NCBI GenBank assembly: GCA_964344655.1
Contig: CAYFOF010000001.1
Span: 3,907-67,906 of the forward strand
Direction: 5' to 3'
From: Candidatus Woesearchaeota archaeon
GTDB lineage: Archaea > Nanobdellota > Nanobdellia > SCGC-AAA011-G17 > PNOQ01
DNA length: 64,000 bases
The position numbers and the translations under genes are program-made. Each line of letters starts with the position of its first letter. The stretch's first letter is position 1. Under the pieces are notes generated by a model. It ran no database searches, had not been told where the DNA came from, and saw nothing but the letters and a program-made list of their open reading frames with translations. Positions 6,408-63,601 of the stretch are shown piece after piece.

Positions 6408-6704
6408 TTGTTTAAAATTCTGATTTTTATGGGAGAAAATAATCAAGAAAGTTTTTTAGAAAATCATAGAAGAATTGAAAATCTTATCGGAAAGGATAAA
6501 AAGGATTTTATTCCAATTTGGGGCATTTGGAATTATCATAGAAGAGCTTGGCCAATTATAAAGAATGAGCCCATTGTAGAGAATGAAAATGATGATCTTT
6601 ATTTTGGATATGATGGTTTGTTTTTTCTAACACATATTGCATATTGCATACCCGCTATTGCCTCATCAGCATATATAATCCTAAAGCATTATGTAAATAA
6701 TTAA
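6408..6704 (+). CDS. hypothetical protein
   Basis: ORF only; no recognisable motif. Confidence 0.3.
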   Translation: MFKILIFMGENNQESFLENHRRIENLIGKDKKDFIPIWGIWNYHRRAWPIIKNEPIVENENDDLYFGYDGLFFLTHIAYCIPAIASSAYIILKHYVNN

Positions 6705-7594
6705 ACTCTAAAGGTTCCACGTTTTTTTAATTTTTTATTATTTTTATTTTTTCTTCTGTAGATAAAAAATCCTACTGCAGCAATTATTACTGCAAATATT
6801 AAATAAGTCCCAGTTCTATCTGGAGCTGTGTTTCCTAAAGAATCTATGAAATACGTTGGATCGTAATAAACTAATTTTTCTATAGTTCTTCTTTCATTTG
6901 TAGAATCAGTATAGTGTAAGATTACTTTTATGTTCCCTTCTGAAGGTGTTGCTTCAAAATCTGCAGTTGTATATTCGTTTGAATCTAAATCACCAACAAT
7001 ATTTCTATTTGCTCCTTTAACAACTATATTTTCTTGTTTTGGGATTTCTACTGTTAATGCTTCAATATCTTGATTTCCAGTATTTAGAATTTCAAAAACT
7101 AAACTCCTATCTTTTATTATGTGGTTATCTACGTAAACTTCAAAGTCGGTTCTTCCGTCTTCTAGTTCGATATCAAATTTTTTGGAAATGTAGCTTCCGA
7201 GTCCAAGATTATCTCTTTCTCTGTATCTTAGTTCTACTTCATATGTTCCTTCTAAAGCATCAGGGTCTATTCTTACTTTGTAAGGAATATTCCAGTTTGA
7301 ATTAAACCCATGTCCAGCGTATGTATTTGCTTCCATTACTTTAATTGAACTTCCACTATCTAAGAAAAATGGATATTCTAAAACTAATTCAACAATAGCA
7401 CCACTATCACAACTTCCTAGCCCTCTAAGTTGGAATAACATTTCTACATACTCTCCTGCTATCGCTGGGTGAGGATCTTGATTTACCAAATCTGCAGCCA
7501 ATTCACAATTATAAAAGTCATTTGCAGAAGTATTGTTTATTAGAAATATAAATAAAACAAATACAAAAATTAATTTTATAAATCGCCCCTCCAT
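6701..7594 (-). CDS. secreted CARDB-like surface protein with C-terminal TM helix and basic tail
   Basis: N-terminal signal peptide; beta-rich repeats with GEYVE...GTYEVEL pattern; C-terminus LIFAVIIAAVGFFIYRRKNK. Confidence 0.5.
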   Translation of the reverse strand: MEGRFIKLIFVFVLFIFLINNTSANDFYNCELAADLVNQDPHPAIAGEYVEMLFQLRGLGSCDSGAIVELVLEYPFFLDSGSSIKVMEANTYAGHGFNSNWNIPYKVRIDPDALEGTYEVELRYRERDNLGLGSYISKKFDIELEDGRTDFEVYVDNHIIKDRSLVFEILNTGNQDIEALTVEIPKQENIVVKGANRNIVGDLDSNEYTTADFEATPSEGNIKVILHYTDSTNERRTIEKLVYYDPTYFIDSLGNTAPDRTGTYLIFAVIIAAVGFFIYRRKNKNNKKLKKRGTFRV

Positions 7595-7632: not shown

Positions 7633-8841
7633 CTATTCACTTCTTAACGCATCTACGGGGTTTGTTTTTGCGGCCCTTCTTGCAGGTAATGCTCCAGATA
7701 TTGCGCCAGTAATTCCTGCGAATGCAATTAATCCTACAAATAAATATATTGAAAAGTGAGGTTGTAAGAAACTCCATCCAAGATCTTTTAGTATTAAACC
7801 ACCAATACTAGAAATCCCCCAACCCAGTGCACAACCCAATACTCCAGCAACAACACCTAAAAATGAACTTTCAAATAAGAATATATCAAATATTTCTATG
7901 TTTTTTGCTCCTACGGCTTTTAATATTCCAATCTCTTTATATCTTTCTAGAACTGAAGTTATCATTGTATTTGCTGTGTTTATTGTTGAAACTAAAACAG
8001 AAATTAATGCTATTAGTACTATAAATCCCACAATAACATTTAGAGCACCTGAAAATTGTTCTATTAATTCATCAAATGATTGTACTGTGAAATCTTCTTT
8101 TCCCTCTTCTACATCTCTTGATTTTCTTAGGCTTTTTTCTATGTCATCTACAACTCTTTGTATGTTATCTAGGTCTACTCTTGCAAAAATTTGTATGTAA
8201 GAATTTTCTTCTGGGAATAGTTCTTCGTAGTAATCATTTGTAACATAAATTTGAGAGTCATCTTGAGGGTTTCCAATTTCTTCTAAAAATCCGATTATTC
8301 TTAGATCTTGACCGTTTACTTCTATTTTATCATTTACTTTGAAGGGTTTTGGGAAAATTTTGTTTGGGATTAAATAATTGTATCCAAGAAGTATTTTTCC
8401 ATCATCTCCTGGGCTTAAGATTCTTCCTTCTTTAGCACCAACATTAAATGAATCTAAAACCATATCTTTTTTTGGATCGTAGGAAATTAAGAAAACAAAT
8501 TTTATATCGCTATTTTGTTTTATTTGTACTGCGTTAAAATATAATCCTGTTGCATCATAAACTCCGGGTGTTTTTGATACGGAATCTATGTCTGATTGGT
8601 TTAATACTACACTTGTTGAAAGGTCTGCCACTCCTCCTGCGGTTTTTGCCATGATTAAAACTTTGTCTGCAGATGACGAAGTTGAGAGTTCATCTATGTA
8701 ATCATATAATCCTAAACCAAAACTTATGAAGATAAATATTGTTGCAATTCCAACTAAAATAGAGAAAATTGTTAAAAAACTTCTACCTTTGTTTTTCTTT
8801 AGATTTTTTAGTGAGTATTTCACTCCTTCTCTACTTATCAT
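7633..8841 (-). CDS. ABC transporter permease, FtsX/MacB family
   Basis: N-terminal TM, large extracytoplasmic domain, three C-terminal TM helices typical of the FtsX fold. Confidence 0.7.
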   Translation of the reverse strand: MISREGVKYSLKNLKKNKGRSFLTIFSILVGIATIFIFISFGLGLYDYIDELSTSSSADKVLIMAKTAGGVADLSTSVVLNQSDIDSVSKTPGVYDATGLYFNAVQIKQNSDIKFVFLISYDPKKDMVLDSFNVGAKEGRILSPGDDGKILLGYNYLIPNKIFPKPFKVNDKIEVNGQDLRIIGFLEEIGNPQDDSQIYVTNDYYEELFPEENSYIQIFARVDLDNIQRVVDDIEKSLRKSRDVEEGKEDFTVQSFDELIEQFSGALNVIVGFIVLIALISVLVSTINTANTMITSVLERYKEIGILKAVGAKNIEIFDIFLFESSFLGVVAGVLGCALGWGISSIGGLILKDLGWSFLQPHFSIYLFVGLIAFAGITGAISGALPARRAAKTNPVDALRSE

Positions 8842-10061
8842 CCTCTTAGGGCCTCCACAGGATTTTGACTTGCCGCCTTCATTGCAGGAATTATTCCAGC
8901 TATTCCTCCAATTAAGAAGCTTCCAAATAAAGCTAGGAATATTAATCCGAAGTCTATGCTAAATCCTAAATCTGTTCCTATGAAATTATTAATTCCTTGT
9001 ATTCCAATTAAACCAATTATTATCCCCAGGAATGCTCCGGCTGCTCCTCCAATTAATCCTAGTAAGCTTGATTCTACAAAAAATTGTGCAAATATGTGTT
9101 CGTTTCTTGCACCGACAGATTTTGTTACTCCGATTTCTTTTCTTCTCTCCATTACAGATGTTGTCATTGTATTTATTATTCCGATTAAACCAATGAAAAT
9201 AGAAATTGAGGCAACTATAACTATGAATATTTGAACTCCACTTAGAACGCTATTTACAGTAGCTAGAGAGGATTCAGGTGTACTTACTTCGAAATTTTCT
9301 TCTCCTAATTTTACATCTCTTCTTTGTCTTAAAAGTTTTTCAATGTCTGTTTTTGTTTTGTTTATTTCTTTTTTATTATTTGGTTCTACTATGATTAAAT
9401 CTGCAACTTCTCCAAAATTAAATATATCATCCATGTCATCTTCTAGCATTAGTATAACATTATCCATAATTAAACTGCCTTGTTTTTCCATTATACCAAT
9501 TACTTCGAATTTTTCTCCGCTAACTAAAATAGATTTCCCTACGGTTATTGGTTTTCCTCCCCAATCTTCTTCTTTATCGTAATAATTAAATCCTAGAACT
9601 ACTTTTCCAGTGTCGGATTCTTTTAGCATTCTTCCAAATAAAGGTCCTTGATCAAGTTGAGTGTATATTAGATCAAGATCTTCCTTATTTTGAGCCATAC
9701 TTCCGAGATACCTAAATTGAATATTATCATTAAATTCTATTTGTCCGGACCTTATGTTTCTGACTACTGTATTTTCTACGCTGCTTAATCTTTCAATTGC
9801 TCTTGCATCATCTCTTGTTATTGGATCTACAACACTGCTTCCAGGAGGGCCAAATCCAGAGATTCCTCCAGCTTGGACAGTTATTAATTCGTTAGCATTT
9901 ATTCCAAATTGACTTGCTACTGCGAGTTGTAAACCATTTCCTAAGGATATTAAAGAAACTACGGCAGTTACACCAATTACGATTCCTAACAAAGTTAACC
10001 AAGATCTAATTCCTCTACTTTTTAGATTCTTTAAAGCTAAAACAAAGAAGTCTTTAATCAT
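8838..10061 (-). CDS. ABC transporter permease, FtsX/MacB family (second copy)
   Basis: Same architecture as the neighbouring permease; 4-bp overlaps imply an operon. Confidence 0.7.
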   Translation of the reverse strand: MIKDFFVLALKNLKSRGIRSWLTLLGIVIGVTAVVSLISLGNGLQLAVASQFGINANELITVQAGGISGFGPPGSSVVDPITRDDARAIERLSSVENTVVRNIRSGQIEFNDNIQFRYLGSMAQNKEDLDLIYTQLDQGPLFGRMLKESDTGKVVLGFNYYDKEEDWGGKPITVGKSILVSGEKFEVIGIMEKQGSLIMDNVILMLEDDMDDIFNFGEVADLIIVEPNNKKEINKTKTDIEKLLRQRRDVKLGEENFEVSTPESSLATVNSVLSGVQIFIVIVASISIFIGLIGIINTMTTSVMERRKEIGVTKSVGARNEHIFAQFFVESSLLGLIGGAAGAFLGIIIGLIGIQGINNFIGTDLGFSIDFGLIFLALFGSFLIGGIAGIIPAMKAASQNPVEALRG

Positions 10062-10782
10062 TCTTTTTCTTACCTCTGCCGTTTGGTTTTTTGGTTATTT
10101 TTTCTATTTTCCCGTCTCTTAACCAATAAACAATATCAGGGTAATTTTTTATTAAATCAGTATCATGAGTTACCATAACAATGGTTTTGCCTTTTTTGTG
10201 TAAATCTTCTAGGAAATCCATTACGTTTTCTCCAGTTTTTGTATCTAGATTTCCTGTTGGTTCATCTGCAAGAATAACTTCTGGAGAATTTGATAATGCT
10301 CTTGCAATTGCTACTCTTTGTTGTTGGCCACCAGAAAGTTCGTTTGGGGCATGATGTTTTCTTTCTTTTAAATCTACTAATTGCATTAATTTGTCTGCTC
10401 TAAAATTTCTCTCTCCGGTGTCGTACCCTTGGAATATCATAGGAATCATTACATTTTCCTTTGCAGTTAAATTATTTATTAGATTAAATGATTGGAAGAT
10501 AAATCCTATTTTTTGTCCACGTATTTGAGCTAGATCAGATTCGCTTAAAGTTGAAATATCTTGATTGTCTAAGAGAATTTTCCCTCTTGTTGGTACGTCT
10601 AAGGATCCAATTAAATTCATCATTGTTGATTTTCCGGAGCCAGAAGGTCCGAGAATTGCAACGAAATCTCCCTCTCTTATTTGTAATGAAACTCCATCTA
10701 CTGCCCTAACAATGTTGTGGCCCATGTGATAGTGTTTGTAGACGTTTTTTAATTCAATAATCACTCTTCTTTCTTCTTTCAT
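10054..10782 (-). CDS. ABC transporter ATP-binding protein (MacB/LolD-like)
   Basis: Walker [10 protein letters not shown], signature [15 protein letters not shown], Walker [12 protein letters not shown]. Confidence 0.85.
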
Positions 10783-11843
10783 TGTTTTATGTTTCCTTTT
10801 GTACTAAATTGTATTCCTTTATCTTTCTTTTTTTGAGAAATATAATCGTAAAATTCTTTGTAAGTCATTACTTTTGCTCCATCATTCTTTACATGTTGTA
10901 AAAATAAATCTAAGTCATCTAATTTTGCTTGTGTGTCGAATGTATTTGGGTGCAGTTGTAGGATGAAAAGATTATCTTCTTCATATTCATCTATCCATTC
11001 TTCATAAGGAGTGTGTAAAAAATTAATAGAGTGCCAGCCATAAACGTAAATTGGATCATAACCTCTTGGAGTAATTATTACATCTGAATCGAAATAGGGT
11101 TTTGAAACATGAGTGTTTCCGATTAATTTGAATCCTGCCTTTCTAACATTTTCATATTGTTCCGTGGTCCAATGATTTCCTGGAGGAAAGTAAGATGTAA
11201 ATTGCATATTGAAAATTGTTTCAAGCTCTCTTTTTCCATTGTAAACATTAAACCAGACTTCTTCATATTTGGGGCAATGATATTCATTTCTGCAATGATT
11301 GTATCCGTGCATACCAAGTTCATAACCTTCTTCTAACAGAGATTTTAAATAATCAATCATTTCTTGATCTCCACTTATATGCATATTCTCTTTTGTTGAT
11401 TCATCAAAAATATAAGGAGTTACACCGAGAGTTGCTTTGAATCCGTATTTGCTTATAATATCTGTTACAGGAATGAACTTATCTAAGGTATATCCATACT
11501 TTTCATAGTATTCTACGTCTTCCATGTTCCAATAATCATCTAATTCAATTATCATTATTTTTTCATCTATCTCTATTGAGGTTGATTTGTCTAGGGCATA
11601 TATTGCATATCTTGTTCCAGAATAGATTACAACTAAAATTAATAAAATAATTAATAATGTTTTGAATATTTGTTTATTTTTATTTTTTGTAAATTTGGCC
11701 ACTTTTCTCCAAAACTCTACATCTGCTTTTTTTCTTACTATAAATAACAGAATTACTAATATTATTATTAATGCAAAAATATAACCTAGAACATCATAAT
11801 ACAATTCACTTAATGTTAAATTTCCTGGAAGTAATCCTACCAT
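10779..11843 (-). CDS. membrane-anchored polysaccharide deacetylase-like (CE4/NodB-like) protein
   Basis: N-terminal TM; ELDDYW and LGMHGYNH resemble NodB motifs 1 and 2; first gene of the ABC operon. Confidence 0.35.
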   Translation of the reverse strand: MVGLLPGNLTLSELYYDVLGYIFALIIILVILLFIVRKKADVEFWRKVAKFTKNKNKQIFKTLLIILLILVVIYSGTRYAIYALDKSTSIEIDEKIMIIELDDYWNMEDVEYYEKYGYTLDKFIPVTDIISKYGFKATLGVTPYIFDESTKENMHISGDQEMIDYLKSLLEEGYELGMHGYNHCRNEYHCPKYEEVWFNVYNGKRELETIFNMQFTSYFPPGNHWTTEQYENVRKAGFKLIGNTHVSKPYFDSDVIITPRGYDPIYVYGWHSINFLHTPYEEWIDEYEEDNLFILQLHPNTFDTQAKLDDLDLFLQHVKNDGAKVMTYKEFYDYISQKKKDKGIQFSTKGNIKQ

Positions 11844-12583: not shown

Positions 12584-14272
12584 TTATTTCCTTTTCTTAA
12601 AGAAAAGAGAAAGGAAATAGATTATTATAACGATTAAAGCTATATCGCCAACGATCCAGAATACTGTTTTTGCTGTTTCACTTTCGAAAACATTTCCAAC
12701 AGTCCATCCCGTAGGCAGGAATACTGTTCCGCTAGTTTCTTCGTTAGATTCACCAGCTAAACTATCTGTTGATTCTGTTTCTTCAGTTTCTTCAGATTCT
12801 GAAACTAAACATCCATTAACAGTTATTTTTTCTACGTAATTTTTTTGTTCACCCAAATCATCGTAGTAAAGAGTGAATGTTAATGCATATTCTTTGTTTT
12901 TCATTCCTTCTGGAATAGTAGCTTCTAGATATACAGTGTTATCATCATCTCGATCATCGTATCTTTCTAAATCGAATGTGTCAGAGAATACATCAATTCC
13001 AAGTTCTGAATTGTACATTCTTACTTTTACTGCATCGTCATCTTTATCTCCAACGTTTTGTACATCAACTTCTGCGTTGAAAAGATATCCACATGAAACT
13101 ACAGATGGATTAACCAAAATACTTTCAATTATTACTTTGTGATCTGGTCTTTCAACATCTATTTCTTCTATATCTTCTATACATTGGTGATCATCGTTTC
13201 TGTATTCGTAAGCTTTAACGTGAACTTCGTATGTTCCGTCATCCCAATCATCTTCAACTTCTATTTCAAATGAAAAGGTTTCCACTTCATCTTCATCTAT
13301 ATCAGTTTTTGAGCTTTTTTCACTCTCTAACTTTCTATCATCTCCACGTTCTGTTACCCAAACTTCTACGATTACATCATCGATATCTTCGTTATCAGTA
13401 TTTTCAATTTCAACATCTATTTGGATTATATCTCCTTGAGCAAATTCATCGTCATTTATATCGAATTCTTCAATTCTTAATTGACCTACATCGCAAAGAT
13501 CGGATTCATCCAAAATATCGAAATCTTTTACTTTAACATCACGTTGATTTAATTCATCATCAGTTTTGTAAGCTTTTGTGTATAGATTGTAATTGTGATC
13601 TGGATCTAAATTATCATCTACATCTAATGAAACTGAAAATGTTTCTTCTATTCCATCATCAATTGTTTGATCGTAGGAATCTGCAAAAGCAACAATTTGT
13701 TTTAAGTTTTCATCGTATAACCAAACTTCTACTCTTACATCAGTTAGATCTGCGGATCCATCATTTTCAACATCTAGATCAATTTCTAGGATATTTCCTG
13801 CTCTCATTTGATCTGGAATATCGTCATATGAATCTGTATCAATGATATTTAAGTCACCAACACTTCCCACATATTGATCTACGAATACTGTAGCAAGAAT
13901 TGTTGTTTGTGTTGTGTTTTCAGTTATAGTAATTGTTGATTCATATTCTCCCATTCTTGTAGAAAGAGGAACATTTACTGTTGCAGTTGTATCTGCTGAA
14001 TCATTTGCAGGCACATCTACAGTACTTGGATCAAACGTTACTGTTCCATCAAACAAATATGTGCTTATGAATGCATTAGTGTATGTAAAATCACTTGCAG
14101 AAAGCACGGTACCAGTTACAGCTGTTGCATCTGGATTTGTTAATGTTATTGTGGCATTTCCTGATTCGCCTTGACTTACAGTTCCAAAATCAACTGGATT
14201 TGCACTCAAGTCAGCGTTTGCTAGCGTAGCTGATAGAATCAAAAACATTGCCATAAATATTAATTTTTTCAT
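12584..14272 (-). CDS. acidic secreted surface protein with three CARDB-like repeats and a C-terminal TM plus KKRK tail
   Basis: Signal peptide MKKLIFMAMFLILSATLANA; repeated V-EVW/V-V-Y modules; very D/E-rich; C-terminus IALIVIIIYFLSLFFKKRK. Confidence 0.6.
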   Translation of the reverse strand: MKKLIFMAMFLILSATLANADLSANPVDFGTVSQGESGNATITLTNPDATAVTGTVLSASDFTYTNAFISTYLFDGTVTFDPSTVDVPANDSADTTATVNVPLSTRMGEYESTITITENTTQTTILATVFVDQYVGSVGDLNIIDTDSYDDIPDQMRAGNILEIDLDVENDGSADLTDVRVEVWLYDENLKQIVAFADSYDQTIDDGIEETFSVSLDVDDNLDPDHNYNLYTKAYKTDDELNQRDVKVKDFDILDESDLCDVGQLRIEEFDINDDEFAQGDIIQIDVEIENTDNEDIDDVIVEVWVTERGDDRKLESEKSSKTDIDEDEVETFSFEIEVEDDWDDGTYEVHVKAYEYRNDDHQCIEDIEEIDVERPDHKVIIESILVNPSVVSCGYLFNAEVDVQNVGDKDDDAVKVRMYNSELGIDVFSDTFDLERYDDRDDDNTVYLEATIPEGMKNKEYALTFTLYYDDLGEQKNYVEKITVNGCLVSESEETEETESTDSLAGESNEETSGTVFLPTGWTVGNVFESETAKTVFWIVGDIALIVIIIYFLSLFFKKRK

Positions 14273-59633: not shown

Positions 59634-59660
59634 GTTTCTTTTTGGGAACTTGTCGTGTTT

Positions 59661-59668
59661 ATAAATCT
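59661..59668 (-). promoter_or_regulatory. TATA box (TTTATAAA) 27 nt upstream of the uL3 start; likely promoter of the large ribosomal operon (leaderless)
   Basis: Archaeal TATA at canonical distance. Confidence 0.35.
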
Positions 59669-59729
59669 TTCTAGAATCAGCGGTCTGATAATCGCGTACA
59701 GTAGGGGATTATAACGGGAGAATTGTTAG

Positions 59730-59737
59730 TTTATAAA
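59730..59737 (+). promoter_or_regulatory. TATA box (TTTATAAA) 23 nt upstream of the GC-rich structured segment starting at 59761
   Basis: Canonical spacing to the putative 5' end GGAAGACC. Confidence 0.3.
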
Positions 59738-59760
59738 TGTTTTTGTTAAGGAAAAATGTA

Positions 59761-59834
59761 GGAAGACCTAGTGTCCTTTCATCATTCAATAGGTGAAACC
59801 ACACCAAAAGTAGAAAGGTTTCCGCGGGCCTTCC
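59761..59834 (+). ncRNA. candidate small structured RNA (~74 nt, GC-rich island with nested stems)
   Basis: Terminal stem GGAAGACC/GGCCTTCC, internal stem CCTTTC/GAAAGG, hairpin GGTG-AAACCA-CACC; no ORF; TATA box upstream. Confidence 0.3.
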
Positions 59835-59865
59835 AGTAAAATCATAAAAACTTAGACTTTAAAAA

Positions 59866-60090
59866 TTATTCGTGTTTTCCAGCTAGCCAGTTAAAGAATT
59901 CTATTCCTACTAAAATTAAGACTAACCAAATAAATGAATTAAGTAATAATCTTAGAAATAATAATGCACTTAATAATAAGAGTAAGAATATCCAGCTTTT
60001 TTTGAAGATATTTGGCCAAGTAAACTTGTTTTTCTTAGATATTTCAGATAACATCCAATCTAAGTAGTTTTTTATTGCAAATTTAGACAT
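59866..60090 (-). CDS. small membrane protein
   Basis: 74-aa ORF with two hydrophobic helices. Confidence 0.35.
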   Translation of the reverse strand: MSKFAIKNYLDWMLSEISKKNKFTWPNIFKKSWIFLLLLLSALLFLRLLLNSFIWLVLILVGIEFFNWLAGKHE

Positions 60091-60206: not shown

Positions 60207-61646
60207 ATGAAACAAACAAAATTCACTAAAATTATAGCATTATTTGCAATTTTCTTAATCTTATTAAATTCAGTTTCTGCGTTAAAGATAGAAACAAGTC
60301 AACCAAATGACGCAAAACAAGGAAATAATGTTTATTTTGACGTAGGAATTGCATTATCAAGAGAAGAGATGATACAATTGACAAATGAAGATATTTTTAT
60401 TAGACATACTAAATTAACTATTACAGGTCCAAATGGATTTGATAAAACATGTTTAATAAAAGAAGGACACTTAATAGATTGTGATTTAGATCTTGAAGTA
60501 AAAGAAATTAGATCACCAACTACTGGTTCTCAAGAGAGTAATGATATTATTTATCAATTTTCTTGGAATACTCCAAATGGCATTGCAACAGGAACATATA
60601 ATGTAAACTTAGAATTATATTTAGCAGAAGCAATTGATGCTCAATATTCTTACTGTGATATGTTAGTTGGAAGATACCAAGCATTAGTAAATTTCGATTC
60701 TACTACACTATTTGATTCAGATTTAGATTTGAATGAAGATGGTTTAATTAATTTAGAAGATTTAGTTGTTTTCCAAGACAATCCATTGTATAGACAAGAT
60801 GGAGAATTATTTGGAAGATTTGAAGGATATTTTATGTTGATTAAAGAATACAATTCATATAATCCATTATTGGATTTAAATGGTGATGGAATAATTAACT
60901 TATCTGACATAGTATTGCTAGCTCAAGAATTAGAAAATAAGAAACTAGATTTGAATGGCGATGGTGTTGAAGATCTTTCAGATATTATATTACTTTCACA
61001 ACATTTCAAAGAAGGTAACTTAGAGTTAGATTGGAATGAGGATGGTATTGTAGACCTTAGTGATGTTGTATTGGTTGTTCAGTACGTTGAAAGTGGAAAT
61101 TTAGAATTTGATTTGAATCAAGATGGAGTTTTTGATTTAAGTGATGTTATAATTATTTCACAAAGTTTGAATCCTAATTTTACAACTGAATATGAAAAGT
61201 CATTAGATTTAACTGGAGATGAGATTTTAAATCTTTCAGATCTTGCTGTATTGGCTCAAAATATTCAAGGTTCATTTGAACCAGAAGATTTGAATGGTGA
61301 TGGCGTAATTGATTTAACAGAAACTATCATTGCTGCAGGAAATGCTAAGAATGAAGAATGGTGTGCAATGCAGTTAGAAAAGATAGATGGTCGTGTTGAA
61401 TTATTTAACGCAGATGAAAAATCTTTTGAAATAACTAAAAGATCTACAGGCGGAAATTCTGGTGGAAACAGCAGAAATTATGAAGATGAATTTGTAGATT
61501 ATGATTCAGGTGAAGAGTATGAAGGAACTTATACCCCAGAAAATGAATCAGGTTATAAAATGAATAGCATATGGATGTTAATCTTCTATGTACTTGCAAT
61601 AATTGTTGCAATATTCATTATAGTTAAAGTTGTAAAAAAACTTTAA
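60207..61646 (+). CDS. secreted protein with seven tandem dockerin-like (EF-hand Ca-binding) repeats and a C-terminal TM plus basic tail
   Basis: Signal peptide; repeats DLNEDGLINLEDL, DLNGDGIINLSDIVLLAQ, DLNGDGVEDLSDIILLSQ, DWNEDGIVDLSDVVLVVQ, DLNQDGVFDLSDVIIISQ, DLTGDEILNLSDLAVLAQ, DLNGDGVIDLTETIIAA; C-terminus MLIFYVLAIIVAIFIIVKVVKKL. Confidence 0.6.
   Translation: MKQTKFTKIIALFAIFLILLNSVSALKIETSQPNDAKQGNNVYFDVGIALSREEMIQLTNEDIFIRHTKLTITGPNGFDKTCLIKEGHLIDCDLDLEVKEIRSPTTGSQESNDIIYQFSWNTPNGIATGTYNVNLELYLAEAIDAQYSYCDMLVGRYQALVNFDSTTLFDSDLDLNEDGLINLEDLVVFQDNPLYRQDGELFGRFEGYFMLIKEYNSYNPLLDLNGDGIINLSDIVLLAQELENKKLDLNGDGVEDLSDIILLSQHFKEGNLELDWNEDGIVDLSDVVLVVQYVESGNLEFDLNQDGVFDLSDVIIISQSLNPNFTTEYEKSLDLTGDEILNLSDLAVLAQNIQGSFEPEDLNGDGVIDLTETIIAAGNAKNEEWCAMQLEKIDGRVELFNADEKSFEITKRSTGGNSGGNSRNYEDEFVDYDSGEEYEGTYTPENESGYKMNSIWMLIFYVLAIIVAIFIIVKVVKKL
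60717..61337 (+). repeat. coding tandem repeat array of about 81 nt units (seven dockerin-like modules)
   Basis: Repeated gat-ttr-aat-gRn-gat-ggn DNA units visible from about 60720 to 61330. Confidence 0.5.
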
Positions 61647-61657
61647 TTTTTTTCTTT

Positions 61658-61966
61658 TTAACATATTACTTGCATAGGGAAGGATTCTGTAAAGTCACAA
61701 TCGAATGAGCTACATCTTTGACAAGGATCTCCGTAAAAACATATTGGTTCTGATTCATCTTCAAATTTGTAACAATTAGATTCTTCAGGACAATTATTTG
61801 TATAATCGCAAGTTAATATTTCTGGACATTGTTTAAACTCACAATTATTGTTGTGGTCTCTTGCAACGTAACTTCCATCGGGACACATTTTAGCGTCTTC
61901 AGTGCAAGCAATTGGGACAGTACAAGAAGAAATTAAAATTGTTAATAGAATTAGTAATAATTTCAT
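61658..61966 (-). CDS. small secreted Cys-rich protein (16 Cys in 102 aa), possible lipoprotein
   Basis: Signal peptide ending LISSC; dense CxxC/CP spacing. Confidence 0.45.
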   Translation of the reverse strand: MKLLLILLTILISSCTVPIACTEDAKMCPDGSYVARDHNNNCEFKQCPEILTCDYTNNCPEESNCYKFEDESEPICFYGDPCQRCSSFDCDFTESFPMQVIC

Positions 61967-62487
61967 TTTTCTATTTTTTTATAACCAATCCACATTATTA
62001 TGATTAACTCTATTAATATTACCAAAGCTCTCCATAATTTACTTAGATCTGGAAATGCACGTATTGTTGCATAGAATAAAACAATTAATCCTGCAAACAT
62101 TAATCCGGCACCCATATAATCAGTTTTGAAATATAATCCTAAAATAACTAACAGTAATCCAATTGGAGCTAAAATGAAAAATAAGTTTCTATTGTATTTT
62201 TCTTCTGCCTCATTATGCTCTTTACTACAATAATCACATTCTTTAAATTCTGCACAGCCTTCGTTATCTAATCCTAATTTTGGATTTCCTCCATCTTCTA
62301 GACAAGCTTCATATCCTGGACCGTAATTAAAATCACATCCTTCTGCAGACTTTGGAGGGAAAGAAATTTCTCTTCCACAGTAATCTTCGTAGTTTGGGGA
62401 AGAATAAAGTGCGTCAACAAATAGACCTACAAATAAAGGAAGTAGTATTGTTATCCCTAAAATCATTGCTAATTTCTTTGGATCCAT
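61963..62487 (-). CDS. membrane protein with Cys-rich extracytoplasmic loop
   Basis: N-terminal TM, 7-Cys ectodomain, three C-terminal TM helices; 4-nt overlap with the downstream Cys-rich gene. Confidence 0.45.
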   Translation of the reverse strand: MDPKKLAMILGITILLPLFVGLFVDALYSSPNYEDYCGREISFPPKSAEGCDFNYGPGYEACLEDGGNPKLGLDNEGCAEFKECDYCSKEHNEAEEKYNRNLFFILAPIGLLLVILGLYFKTDYMGAGLMFAGLIVLFYATIRAFPDLSKLWRALVILIELIIIMWIGYKKIEK

Positions 62488-62622: not shown

Positions 62623-62922
62623 CTATAAATTTAATTGTATTGTGTAGCTTTCTGGTAAGAACTTTGCTACAAATTCCTCTGCGTTTGCTTTTGCTTGTTC
62701 TAATAATTCAGAGGTAATATCTGTTATTGTTTCTGTAACCAAGTAAGTGATATCTCCCACTGGTCTAGTCTCTTCTCTAACCTTTTCCCTTTCTATTGGG
62801 TGAATTCCTACGTATGCTTTTTTAAATTTTAATGTGTATTCTAATGTCATAAATTTAGGAATAGATATTTGATTTATAATTCTTATGTTATTTCTTTCTA
62901 AATGATTTTGAAATGGATTCAT
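62623..62922 (-). CDS. hypothetical protein
   Basis: ORF overlapping the upstream ATPase gene by 35 nt. Confidence 0.3.
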   Translation of the reverse strand: MNPFQNHLERNNIRIINQISIPKFMTLEYTLKFKKAYVGIHPIEREKVREETRPVGDITYLVTETITDITSELLEQAKANAEEFVAKFLPESYTIQLNL

Positions 62923-63601
62923 TCCAGAATTCTGGCAGTCCAGATTTTATTAGTCCTTCAAATTCATCAGAAATTACGTAGAAATGCTCTTTTTTGTTTT
63001 CAATTGTAGAAAAAGAATCTCCAACTTTGTTAAACATATCCTGTAGTGCTTTTCTTTCGAATCTTGTTTGTAATAAAGAAGGTTCTTTGAATAGTAAAAT
63101 ATCACAAAGTCTTAGTACATTTAAATCTAGCATTGCAGAGTTTTGAGTTATGAATATTAATGAAAGGTTTTTGTGTCGGGCTATTGCTAATAATTCAGCT
63201 AAATCTTTGTTTGATTGTTTCATAGAAGATCTTGAAGAGAATGAAATTCCGGCTTCATCTATTAAGACTAAAGAATTGTTTGGGATTTCAGAAATATCAT
63301 CTACGTTTTGTACCCAGTAAGGTATTTTTGAATTATTAAATCCTATGACAAAAATATTTTTATTTAGTATTGCAGCAGTTTCAACTAGTTTCATTCCTAG
63401 TGCGGTTTTTCCTGCACCTCTTCTTCCGATTATTAGCATTATTAGAGAATGATTTTTGAATTGTGTAATGAAATCTTCAAAATTTCCATTTTTTATTTGA
63501 CTTACTTCAAAATTAGATAAGGCAGAATTAAATCTATCTTTTTCGGTTATTCTTTGTTTTTCCTCTTTTTGTTTTTTATATTTTTTAAATATATTCAACA
63601 T
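62888..63601 (-). CDS. P-loop NTPase (RecA/KaiC-like or Zot-like single-domain ATPase)
   Basis: Walker A IIGRRGAGKT, Walker B LVLIDEAG. Confidence 0.5.
   Translation of the reverse strand: MLNIFKKYKKQKEEKQRITEKDRFNSALSNFEVSQIKNGNFEDFITQFKNHSLIMLIIGRRGAGKTALGMKLVETAAILNKNIFVIGFNNSKIPYWVQNVDDISEIPNNSLVLIDEAGISFSSRSSMKQSNKDLAELLAIARHKNLSLIFITQNSAMLDLNVLRLCDILLFKEPSLLQTRFERKALQDMFNKVGDSFSTIENKKEHFYVISDEFEGLIKSGLPEFWNESISKSFRKK

What the first reader, a model, noticed from the sequence alone, without database searches (positions are those of the whole stretch)
60207..62487. Surface protein with seven consecutive dockerin-like repeats next to two Cys-rich secreted/membrane proteins
Canonical dockerins carry two Ca-binding repeats. 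This protein carries seven DxNxDGxIDLSDxxxL-type modules in a row (60717..61337) between an N-terminal beta-rich domain and a C-terminal TM anchor. Convergent and immediately adjacent are an operon of a 7-Cys polytopic membrane protein and a 16-Cys 102-aa secreted protein (61658..62487). This is a candidate cell-cell or cell-surface adhesion module, possibly relevant to an episymbiotic lifestyle; the cohesin-like partner is unidentified.
Basis: partly seen in the sequence, partly recalled or inferred. Interest (0 to 1): 0.62.

Follow-up and report, generated by a model that had tools for sequence, protein, structure and literature searches.

The report
Archaeal surface protein with seven dockerin-like repeats
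A small symbiont-type archaeon (Woesearchaeota) encodes a membrane-anchored surface protein whose calcium-binding, dockerin-like segment occurs seven times instead of the usual two; this is a real but fairly ordinary member of a known class, and the two cysteine-rich neighbouring genes do not belong to it.

Summary
Gene 60207..61646(+) encodes a 479-aa protein with a signal peptide, an Ig-like beta-sandwich, seven 22-residue dockerin-type Ca-loop/helix segments, an acidic Gly/Ser/Asn-rich stalk and a C-terminal TM anchor. It passes Pfam Dockerin_1 (54 bits against a cutoff of 22.9). It fails the EF-hand thresholds and gives no thrombospondin hit.

About 15 close homologues exist, and the named ones are Woesearchaeota. 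Repeat number varies across them (2, 3, 5, 6-7). Only the first and last repeats and four cysteines are constant, so the array most simply reads as a lineage-specific expansion inside a two-repeat dockerin-like module.

Long arrays of such repeats are common elsewhere: runs of 8-26 occur among the best 150 database representatives. Dockerin-rich, membrane-anchored proteins are already described in Omnitrophota.

The Cys-rich neighbours are not linked to this gene. The membrane protein belongs to a family of at least 112 clusters that occurs without the dockerin gene. The small lipoprotein drifts away from it in relatives. No cohesin was found in the window or in related loci.

Most likely this is a Ca2+-stabilised surface spacer or adhesin. 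Its binding partner is unknown. I file it as a new member of a known kind, of modest interest.

The parts
60207..61646 (+). Gene A: 479-aa type-I membrane-anchored surface protein (signal peptide, Ig-like head, seven dockerin-like repeats, stalk, TM anchor)
   Evidence: ORF. Pfam Dockerin_1 54.3 bits against gathering score 22.9. 15 homologues, with named ones from Woesearchaeota. AF2 model.
60207..60281 (+). Signal peptide (aa 1-25, ...NSVSA|LK); the cleavage site is inferred
   Evidence: Hydrophobic segment at aa 4-30. A25 is invariant in the 14 family members. The cleavage position is an inference from the sequence.
60282..60641 (+). Ig-like beta-sandwich head (aa ~26-145) with conserved C82 and C92
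60651..60692 (+). Helix aa 149-162 carrying invariant C150, the proposed N-terminal half of a disulfide bracket around the repeat module
   Evidence: AF2 helix 149-162. C150 is invariant. A C150-like and a C386-like motif co-occur with dockerin-like loops, and no loop-free relative has both. The disulfide itself is inferred.
60726..60791 (+). Repeat 1 (aa 174-195, DLNEDGLINLED + helix); present in every family member
   Evidence: D174, L175, D178 and D185 are invariant. pLDDT 75-85.
60801..60857 (+). Conserved linker helix (aa 199-217, GELFGRFEGYF...), the site after which the extra repeats lie
   Evidence: G203, R204 and F205 are invariant. AF2 helix 199-217. In P0139 a roughly 270-aa insert sits just before this helix.
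60873..61271 (+). Repeats 2-6 (aa 223-244, 248-269, 275-296, 302-323, 334-355): the variable, lineage-specific part of the array
   Evidence: Pairs 2+3, 4+5 and 5+6 each span the whole Dockerin_1 profile at 28.5-32.9 bits. These repeats are absent from the 2-repeat relatives and partly present in the 3- and 5-repeat relatives. AF2 confidence is low here, pLDDT about 40-48 over aa 220-320.
61287..61352 (+). Repeat 7 (aa 361-382, DLNGDGVIDLTE + helix); a last repeat is present in nearly all family members
   Evidence: It has Glu at loop position 12.
61353..61436 (+). Conserved C-terminal cap (aa 383-410, EEWCAMQLEKIDG + beta-hairpin) with invariant W385 and C386
   Evidence: AF2 helix 383-393 and strands 397-409, pLDDT about 76.
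61437..61553 (+). Low-complexity Gly/Ser/Asn and acidic/Tyr-rich stalk (aa 411-449), with one N-E-S sequon
   Evidence: pLDDT below 50 at aa 412-454. Sequence printed.
61554..61643 (+). C-terminal TM anchor with basic tail (aa 450-479, ...VKVVKKL)
   Evidence: Hydropathy. AF2 helix 448-478. No PGF-CTERM-type model hit.
59866..60090 (-). 74-aa two-TM protein transcribed divergently from A; apart from the L3 operon, the only neighbour conserved beside A in the 3- to 7-repeat lineages with DNA available
   Evidence: tblastn 42-91% identity next to A homologues in L001, L002, L009, L010 and L011. No family hit.
61658..61966 (-). Gene B: 102-aa predicted lipoprotein (lipobox LISSC at Cys15) with 12 more Cys. 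Adjacent to A, but not shown to belong with it.
   Evidence: Cys count. The lipobox and all Cys are conserved in 5 homologue clusters. In L009 it lies about 2 kb from A behind two other genes. No Pfam, NCBIfam or PDB hit.
61963..62487 (-). Gene C: 174-aa four-TM membrane protein with a 6-Cys loop (including C84-x-x-C87). It is a widespread Woese/Pacearchaeota family and is not tied to A.
   Evidence: At least 112 clusters. The Cys are 98-100% conserved. AF2 pLDDT 88.8. The family occurs without A or B in L006-L008.

Best explanation
Gene A encodes a Sec-exported cell-surface protein of a Woesearchaeota (DPANN) archaeon, anchored in the membrane by its C-terminus.

Architecture, from the membrane outward: a TM anchor, a flexible acidic Gly/Ser/Asn-rich stalk, a dockerin-like Ca2+-binding module, and an Ig-like head.

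The family's basic module is a non-cellulosomal dockerin-like pair of 'F-hands' (a 12-residue Ca loop plus a helix). The pair is bracketed by two invariant cysteines (C150 and C386), probably a disulfide clasp. In this lineage five further F-hands have been added between the first and last one, after the linker helix. This gives seven loops, all with a full or nearly full set of Ca ligands, so about seven Ca2+ ions per molecule are expected.

The most likely role is structural and adhesive. Ca2+ would rigidify the helical array, which sets how far the Ig-like head projects and offers repeated protein-binding faces on the cell surface.

The two Cys-rich neighbours are separate genes that lie next to it only in close relatives.

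Shown: the architecture, the dockerin-type sequence signature, the variation in repeat number among homologues, and the lack of conserved linkage to the neighbours.
Inferred: Ca2+ binding, the disulfide bracket, the direction of change (expansion rather than loss), and the spacer/adhesin function.
For: - Dockerin_1 is above threshold while the EF-hand models are below theirs and TSP_3 gives no hit.
- The best PDB sequence match is a cellulosomal dockerin, 2y3n_B, E=1.5e-6.
- All seven loops carry D/N/T at positions 1, 3, 5 and 9 and D/E at position 12.
- Each loop is followed by a predicted helix.
- A signal peptide and a C-terminal TM segment are present.
- Repeat number is 2, 3, 5, 6 or 7 among homologues, with the first and last repeat, the GRF helix, C150 and W385-C386 constant.
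- The Cys pair co-occurs with the module and is missing from head-only relatives.
- One relative carries a large insert at the same place in the module.
- A is the fastest-evolving gene of its neighbourhood: 65% identity against 69-91% for its neighbours. That is typical of exposed surface proteins.
- Membrane-anchored proteins rich in dockerin repeats have been described in ultra-small bacteria and proposed to be adhesins (PMC10066038; bioRxiv 10.1101/2023.11.21.568195).
Against: - No experiment or structure supports Ca2+ binding or rigidity here.
- AF2 confidence for repeats 2-5 is low, pLDDT 40-48, so the packing of the array is unknown.
- The two-repeat relatives fall below the Pfam dockerin threshold, 18.8 bits at best. 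The ancestral module is therefore only dockerin-like.
- A spacer role does not explain why all ligand positions and the 'DLSD' motif are kept so strictly.
- A specific partner (cohesin or other) has not been excluded, because only 64 kb of the genome could be searched.
Confidence: 0.6

Rival explanations
1. The array is a true polyvalent dockerin, a 'reverse scaffoldin'. Each pair of repeats, or each repeat, binds a cohesin module carried by the archaeon's own secreted proteins or by a host cell. The protein would recruit several partners to the surface or glue the cell to its host.
For: Adjacent pairs 2+3, 4+5 and 5+6 each align end to end with the Dockerin_1 profile above threshold. Archaeal dockerins have been reported to bind cohesins specifically, and dockerin/cohesin pairs are proposed for cell-cell contact in ANME archaea (PMC9012536). 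The surface location fits.
Against: No Cohesin (PF00963) hit was found in any exported protein of the window. None was found in any gene of the related loci annotated with Pfam. The N-terminal domain is Ig-like and not cohesin-like. The repeat number is odd, the register is ambiguous, and pair 6+7 fails the model. Repeat number varies freely among orthologues, which is more usual for spacers than for stoichiometric docking sites. The rest of the genome and the host could not be searched.
Confidence: 0.2
2. The repeats act mainly as extracellular Ca2+ (divalent cation) binding sites, for buffering, sensing or envelope stabilisation, with no protein partner. They would then be EF-hand-like rather than dockerin-like in function.
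For: The loops fit the EF-hand ligand pattern, including Glu at position 12 in repeat 7. EF-hand models give sub-threshold hits. JGI names similar multi-repeat proteins 'Ca2+-binding EF-hand superfamily protein'.
Against: All EF-hand models are below their gathering scores while Dockerin_1 is above its own. The Ig-like head, shared with many repeat-free relatives, points to a displayed binding domain rather than an ion buffer.
Confidence: 0.12
3. Genes A, B and C form one functional adhesion or secretion module. The Cys-rich lipoprotein and membrane protein would be partners or maturation factors of the dockerin protein.
For: The genes are immediately adjacent here and in a relative with 65% identity (L001 and L002). 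B homologues were found only in lineages that also have A.
Against: A is convergent with B and C, not co-transcribed. Distant A homologues lack B and C. The C family has at least 112 clusters, against about 15 for A, and occurs without A or B in L006-L008. In L009, B is separated from A by two genes. In L011, C lies about 4 kb away beside the Zot-like ATPase, and no B is detectable.
Confidence: 0.05

Closest known systems
Non-cellulosomal dockerin-like modules of archaea and bacteria (Peer et al. 2009 survey; Archaeoglobus fulgidus cohesin/dockerin proteins; ANME dockerin proteins, as summarised in PMC9012536)
   Same: A dockerin-type duplicated Ca-loop/helix segment in an organism with no cellulosome. 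An exported protein. Function unknown, with a role in surface assembly or cell-cell contact proposed.
   Different: Here there are seven segments instead of two, tightly spaced at 25-32 aa. They sit in the middle of a C-terminally membrane-anchored protein, between an Ig-like head and a stalk. No cohesin is known for this lineage. The Peer et al. paper could not be read, so this comparison rests on how others cite it.
Dockerin-type giant proteins and multi-dockerin giant ORFs of Omnitrophota (bioRxiv 10.1101/2023.11.21.568195; PMC10066038)
   Same: Many dockerin repeats in one polypeptide, a C-terminal membrane anchor and extracellular display, in an ultra-small organism that probably depends on a host. 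Attachment is the proposed role. Dockerin helices can flank inserted domains, as in relative P0139 of this family.
   Different: Those are bacterial proteins of thousands to more than 30,000 aa, with thrombospondin, discoidin and enzyme domains. This one is a 479-aa archaeal protein with only an Ig-like head. No sequence relationship outside the repeats was shown.
Cellulosomal type I dockerin (e.g. Bacteroides cellulosolvens Cel48 dockerin, PDB 2y3n chain B)
   Same: Best solved-structure sequence match: E=1.5e-6, with repeats 2+3 aligned to both F-hands. The Ca-ligand pattern is the same.
   Different: The linker between the two loops is 8 residues shorter here. No enzyme is attached, no cohesin partner is known, and there are seven segments.
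Metagenomic proteins with long dockerin-like arrays (e.g. P0141 with 26 consecutive loops, P0154 and P0189 with 12)
   Same: The same loop-helix unit at 27-33 aa spacing, recognised by Pfam Dockerin_1 in 5-8 stretches.
   Different: Different flanking domains, and no shared Ig-like head or Cys bracket. They are unannotated or named 'Ca2+-binding EF-hand superfamily protein'.

Membership tests
Dockerin type I domain (Pfam PF00404) | Score above the curated Pfam gathering threshold | tested here: met
   54.3 bits against 22.9, E=1.6e-14, 3 stretches. Isolated pairs 2+3, 4+5 and 5+6 score 28.5-32.9 bits over profile positions 2-57.
Dockerin type I domain (Pfam PF00404) | A segment of about 22 residues: a 12-residue Ca2+ loop with Asp/Asn at positions 1, 3, 5, 9 and 12, followed by an alpha-helix (F-hand) | tested here: met
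   Met in 7 of 7 loops, with one Thr at position 3 (repeat 6) and one Glu at position 12 (repeat 7). A helix is predicted after every loop.
Dockerin type I domain (Pfam PF00404) | A module built of exactly two such segments separated by a linker | tested here: not met
   There are seven segments, with spacings of 49, 25, 27, 27, 32 and 27 aa. The two-segment form exists only in distant family members (P0011-P0014), which score below the Pfam threshold.
Dockerin type I domain (Pfam PF00404) | A cohesin partner encoded by the same organism or community, with Ca2+-dependent binding to it | tested here: inconclusive
   No PF00963 hit in the exported proteins of the 64-kb window or in Pfam-annotated genes of the related loci. 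The rest of the genome and any host are out of reach. Binding cannot be tested with these tools.
Cellulosome component | A dockerin appended to a carbohydrate-active enzyme or scaffoldin | tested here: not met
   The protein has no catalytic, CBM or cohesin domain. The organism is a DPANN archaeon.
EF-hand (PF00036, PF13202, PF13405, PF13499) | Score above the gathering threshold; helix-loop-helix unit | tested here: not met
   The scores are 21.4, 21.6, 14.9 and 17.5 bits, against cutoffs of 25.4, 25.9, 25 and 30.
   No TSP_3 family is listed at E<=1 for the protein or for any repeat pair.
Cohesin (tested for the N-terminal domain, as a possible self-partner) | Cohesin Pfam match or a cohesin-like nine-strand jelly-roll fold | tested here: not met
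Unnamed Woesearchaeota 'Ig-head' anchored surface protein family | Signal peptide, the conserved head (PNDAxQG...TGPNGF...C...C...), a low-complexity stalk and a C-terminal TM segment | tested here: met
   A profile search finds 21 representatives at E<=1e-30. A head-only HMM finds 51 proteins, with or without dockerin-like loops. Sequences inspected. Named members are Candidatus Woesearchaeota.
Archaeosortase substrates (PGF-CTERM and related sorting signals) | A PGF or related tripeptide before the C-terminal TM helix; an NCBIfam sorting-domain hit | tested here: not met
   The only NCBIfam hit is a sub-threshold dockerin_GC. The C-terminus reads ...GYKMNSIWMLIFYVLAIIVAIFIIVKVVKKL, with no such motif.
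DsbB / VKOR-type membrane thiol oxidoreductase (considered for gene C only) | A four-helix membrane bundle with CxxC and a second Cys pair facing outward; structural or sequence similarity to DsbB or VKOR | tested here: inconclusive

The most novel reading that the evidence does not exclude
The seven-fold F-hand array is a polyvalent, Ca2+-dependent docking platform on the surface of a DPANN archaeon. It would bind cohesin-like or other modules on a host cell or on secreted partner proteins. Attachment valency would then be tuned by gain and loss of repeats (2, 3, 5, 7) within a disulfide-clasped dockerin that tolerates insertions.
Probability: 0.12. Interest if true: 0.65.

Novelty: new member of a known kind. 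Interest (0 to 1): 0.27.

Why it matters
How DPANN archaea attach to their hosts is largely unknown, and surface proteins that evolve quickly by repeat gain are plausible candidates. This family offers a small, tractable example of dockerin-like repeat expansion inside one module: 479 aa, against the giant Omnitrophota proteins. It could be used to test whether non-cellulosomal dockerin arrays are Ca2+-stiffened spacers or true docking sites. As it stands it adds one more uncharacterised member to a known class. It does not reveal a new mechanism. The claimed three-gene adhesion module does not hold.

Tried and rejected
- A look-up of the exact protein (P0001) in the assembly index found nothing. 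The look-up via gene C gave only a 2.9-kb contig. The 296-kb source contig could therefore not be walked for cohesins.
- The afdb50 fold library was unavailable.
- Peer et al. 2009 is not held.
- Tandem Repeats Finder found no DNA repeats inside gene A.
- Foldseek against the PDB gave only weak Ig-like hits for A, with nothing at E<=1e-3.
- A repeat HMM built only from this protein's seven repeats undercounted repeats in other proteins. A first regex was off by one position. Both were replaced by the corrected pattern.
- The idea that the 166-aa exported protein just upstream of A in relatives is a partner could not be pursued. It has no family hit and is absent from this window and from L001 and L002.
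- The idea that gene C is a DsbB/VKOR analogue has no structural or sequence support.
- B has no PDB, Pfam or NCBIfam match.
- Rfam and tRNA scans found nothing near the gene.
- The sigma-70 promoter scan is at background level and is not relevant to an archaeon.
Full report
**What is there.** The window comes from a low-GC (about 30%) archaeon. It carries an archaeal-type ribosomal protein operon (L3, L4, L23, L2 and onward) directly upstream of the finding. The closest named homologues of the genes studied are from 'Candidatus Woesearchaeota'. The ORF at 60207..61646(+) encodes 479 aa.

It has an N-terminal hydrophobic signal-like segment and a C-terminal TM segment at about aa 450-479. An AlphaFold2 model built on 15 homologues has mean pLDDT 60, and its confident parts are at 73-85. 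It shows these elements:
- a beta-sandwich at aa 41-141;
- a helix at 149-162;
- a series of short helices, each following one repeat;
- a small helix plus beta-hairpin cap at 383-409;
- a disordered stalk at 412-449;
- a TM helix at 448-478.

**The repeats.** Seven Ca-loop motifs start at aa 174, 223, 248, 275, 302, 334 and 361, which is nt 60726..61352. A strict pattern matches 7 times, against 0 in 5000 shuffles. All seven loops carry the EF/F-hand ligand set at positions 1, 3, 5, 9 and 12. The only deviations are Thr at position 3 and Glu at position 6 in repeat 6, and Glu at position 12 in repeat 7.

Pfam Dockerin_1 scores 54.3 bits against a gathering score of 22.9. Every EF-hand model stays below its threshold, and no thrombospondin type 3 model is listed. 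The best solved-structure match is a cellulosomal dockerin (2y3n_B, E=1.5e-6). The linker between the loops is 8 residues shorter here.

When tested alone, pairs 2+3, 4+5 and 5+6 each cover the whole dockerin profile above threshold. For pairs 3+4 and 1+2 only one repeat matches. Pair 6+7 fails. The register of pairing is therefore ambiguous, and with seven units at least one would be unpaired.

There is no DNA-level tandem repeat. Repeat-to-repeat identity is 25-58%. The array is old, not a recent duplication or an assembly artefact.

**The family.** Only 15 clusters among 5.8 billion proteins match at E<=1e-3. A profile search of 1.84 billion representatives gives 21 hits at E<=1e-30. The alignment shows a constant frame:
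- the signal peptide;
- the Ig-like head with C82 and C92;
- a helix with C150;
- repeat 1;
- a 'GELFGRFQGFF' helix;
- a last repeat;
- an 'EEWCAxQLExIDG' cap with C386;
- a stalk and a TM segment.

Between the GRF helix and the last repeat, the number of extra repeats differs:
- none in P0011-P0014, giving two repeats in all;
- one in P0010;
- three in P0008 and P0009;
- five in P0001-P0003, P0006 and P0007;
- P0004 and P0005 also have five, but their seventh repeat is degenerate.

Orthologous repeats keep their individual signatures, for example 'LDWNxDGIV' for repeat 4, down to 52% overall identity. The seven-repeat form is therefore stable within its clade.

A head-only HMM finds 51 proteins. 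About 22 of them have no dockerin-like loop at all and consist of head plus stalk plus TM. The C150-like and C386-like motifs occur together with the repeat module, and no head-only protein has both. I take this as indirect evidence for a disulfide that clasps the two ends of the module; this is inference. One relative, P0139, has an insert of roughly 270 aa between repeat 1 and the GRF helix. The module therefore tolerates insertions at this place. That fits the reading that repeats 2-6 are an expansion inside a two-repeat dockerin-like module.

**How unusual is it?** Not very. Among the best 150 representatives of the profile search, many unrelated proteins match the repeat region in 5-13 stretches. 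A loop pattern counts runs of 26, 16, 12, 12, 11, 11 and 9 consecutive loops. About 35 proteins outside this family have runs of 6 or more. Spacings are mostly 27-33 aa, overlapping the 25-32 aa seen here. Pfam calls these Dockerin_1 with 5-8 stretches. JGI names some of them 'Ca2+-binding EF-hand superfamily protein'.

The literature already describes a giant Omnitrophota ORF with nine non-cellulosomal dockerin domains, proposed as an adhesin (PMC10066038). It also describes membrane-anchored 'Dockerin-type giant proteins' with many dockerin repeats, including dockerin helices split by an inserted domain (bioRxiv 10.1101/2023.11.21.568195). Dockerin/cohesin proteins are also discussed for ANME archaea (PMC9012536). 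No held paper combines dockerin with Woesearchaeota.

**The neighbours.** B (61658..61966, minus strand, 102 aa) has 13 Cys. Cys15 sits in a lipobox (LISSC) that is conserved in all five homologue clusters. The other 12 Cys are also conserved.

B and C overlap by 4 nt. A terminator-like hairpin at 62536-62518 lies upstream of C. They are therefore probably a two-gene unit, convergent with A.

The linkage to A is not conserved:
- The order A, B, C is kept in a relative with 65% identity.
- In the 3-repeat relative, B is about 2 kb from A, behind a SpoIIE phosphatase gene and a 166-aa gene.
- In the 5-repeat relative, C lies about 4 kb away beside the Zot-like ATPase, and no B is detectable.
- The 2-repeat relatives have neither gene. 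They sit next to glycosyltransferases and a DUF5667 protein.
- In three other Woesearchaeota genomes, C is followed by a PTA_PTB gene, with no A or B nearby.

Apart from the L3 ribosomal operon, the only neighbour kept beside A in those 3- to 7-repeat relatives for which DNA was available is the small two-TM gene at 59866..60090.

**Cohesin.** The exported proteins of the window with a sizeable extracellular part are 6701..7594, 12584..14272, the MacB-type permeases and the deacetylase-like protein. None of them hits Cohesin. No gene annotated in the related loci carries PF00963 either. The remainder of the genome could not be reached, so absence is not shown.

**Mechanism.** The best-supported reading is a type-I anchored surface protein in which a Ca2+-loaded helical array lies between a flexible stalk and an Ig-like head. 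Changes in repeat number would alter the reach of the head or the number of binding faces. Ca2+ binding, the C150-C386 clasp and the adhesive role are inferred, not shown.

There are three rivals:
1. True multivalent cohesin docking (0.2).
2. A pure cation-binding role (0.12).

**Verdict.** The protein is a new, small archaeal member of the known class of non-cellulosomal, multi-repeat dockerin-like surface proteins. Interest is modest (0.27). The most novel reading still open is a tunable polyvalent docking platform for host attachment, at a probability of about 0.12.

Noticed in passing
window 61963..62487 (-): Gene C belongs to a family of at least 112 clusters in Woese/Pacearchaeota with six essentially invariant Cys, including a CxxC just before TM2. 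Its AF2 model is confident (pLDDT 88.8), with four TM helices and a small Cys-rich domain. It has no recognisable relative in the PDB. In three other genomes it is followed by a PTA_PTB gene. It may be a thiol-redox or metal-binding membrane protein; its function is unknown.
   Followed up: partly
window 61658..61966 (-): Gene B is a predicted archaeal lipoprotein (conserved lipobox LISSC/ISAC/VSAC) with 12 conserved Cys in about 87 mature residues. Only five homologue clusters exist, and it has no Pfam, NCBIfam or PDB match.
   Followed up: partly
L001 13814..19349 (the region that would lie just beyond the right end of the window): In the syntenic relative, the genes after the DUF4870 gene encode a DsbA-like thioredoxin, a copper P-type ATPase, an FtrD-like protein, DsbD, an HMA protein and a MarR regulator. 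This disulfide/copper-handling cluster lies close to the Cys-rich genes B and C and may be more relevant to them than the dockerin protein is.
   Followed up: no
window 62888..63601 (-) and 62623..62922 (-): A Zot-like P-loop ATPase is 80-91% identical in relatives where the dockerin protein is only 35-65% identical. The 99-aa ORF next to it is called as 75 aa in other assemblies, so its apparent 35-nt overlap with the ATPase gene is probably a start-codon artefact.
   Followed up: partly
window 6701..7594 (-) and 12584..14272 (-): Two more exported, C-terminally anchored beta-rich proteins. The 562-aa one passes the NPCBM_assoc cutoff, and the other hits (CARDB and similar) are below threshold. 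They flank a MacB-type ABC transporter (7633..10782) and a DUF2334/polysaccharide-deacetylase-like protein (10779..11843). Their topology is the same as that of the dockerin protein, and neither has a cohesin hit.
   Followed up: partly
window 59866..60090 (-): A 74-aa two-TM protein is transcribed divergently from the dockerin gene and stays next to it in every 3- to 7-repeat relative with DNA available (42-91% identity). It has no family match.
   Followed up: partly
L009 2327..2827 and L011 8569..9077: Relatives with 3-5 repeats carry a 166-aa exported protein of unknown family directly upstream of, and co-directional with, the dockerin gene. It is absent from this window and from L001 and L002.
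   Followed up: partly
proteins P0139, P0143, P0146 (relatives, not in the window): Some family members carry large extra domains between the Ig-like head and the dockerin-like module, or inside the module. Distant members have a Gly-Tyr-rich (GYGYGY) insert in the head and an 'ITGAVxG' motif before the C-terminal TM segment, which might be a sorting signal.
   Followed up: no
window 59634..59865: A 232-bp non-coding gap lies between the L3 gene and the 74-aa gene. It has no tRNA or Rfam match. Some assemblies annotate L3 with a longer N-terminus (366 aa against 314 aa) that would reach into the first 156 bp of this gap.
   Followed up: partly
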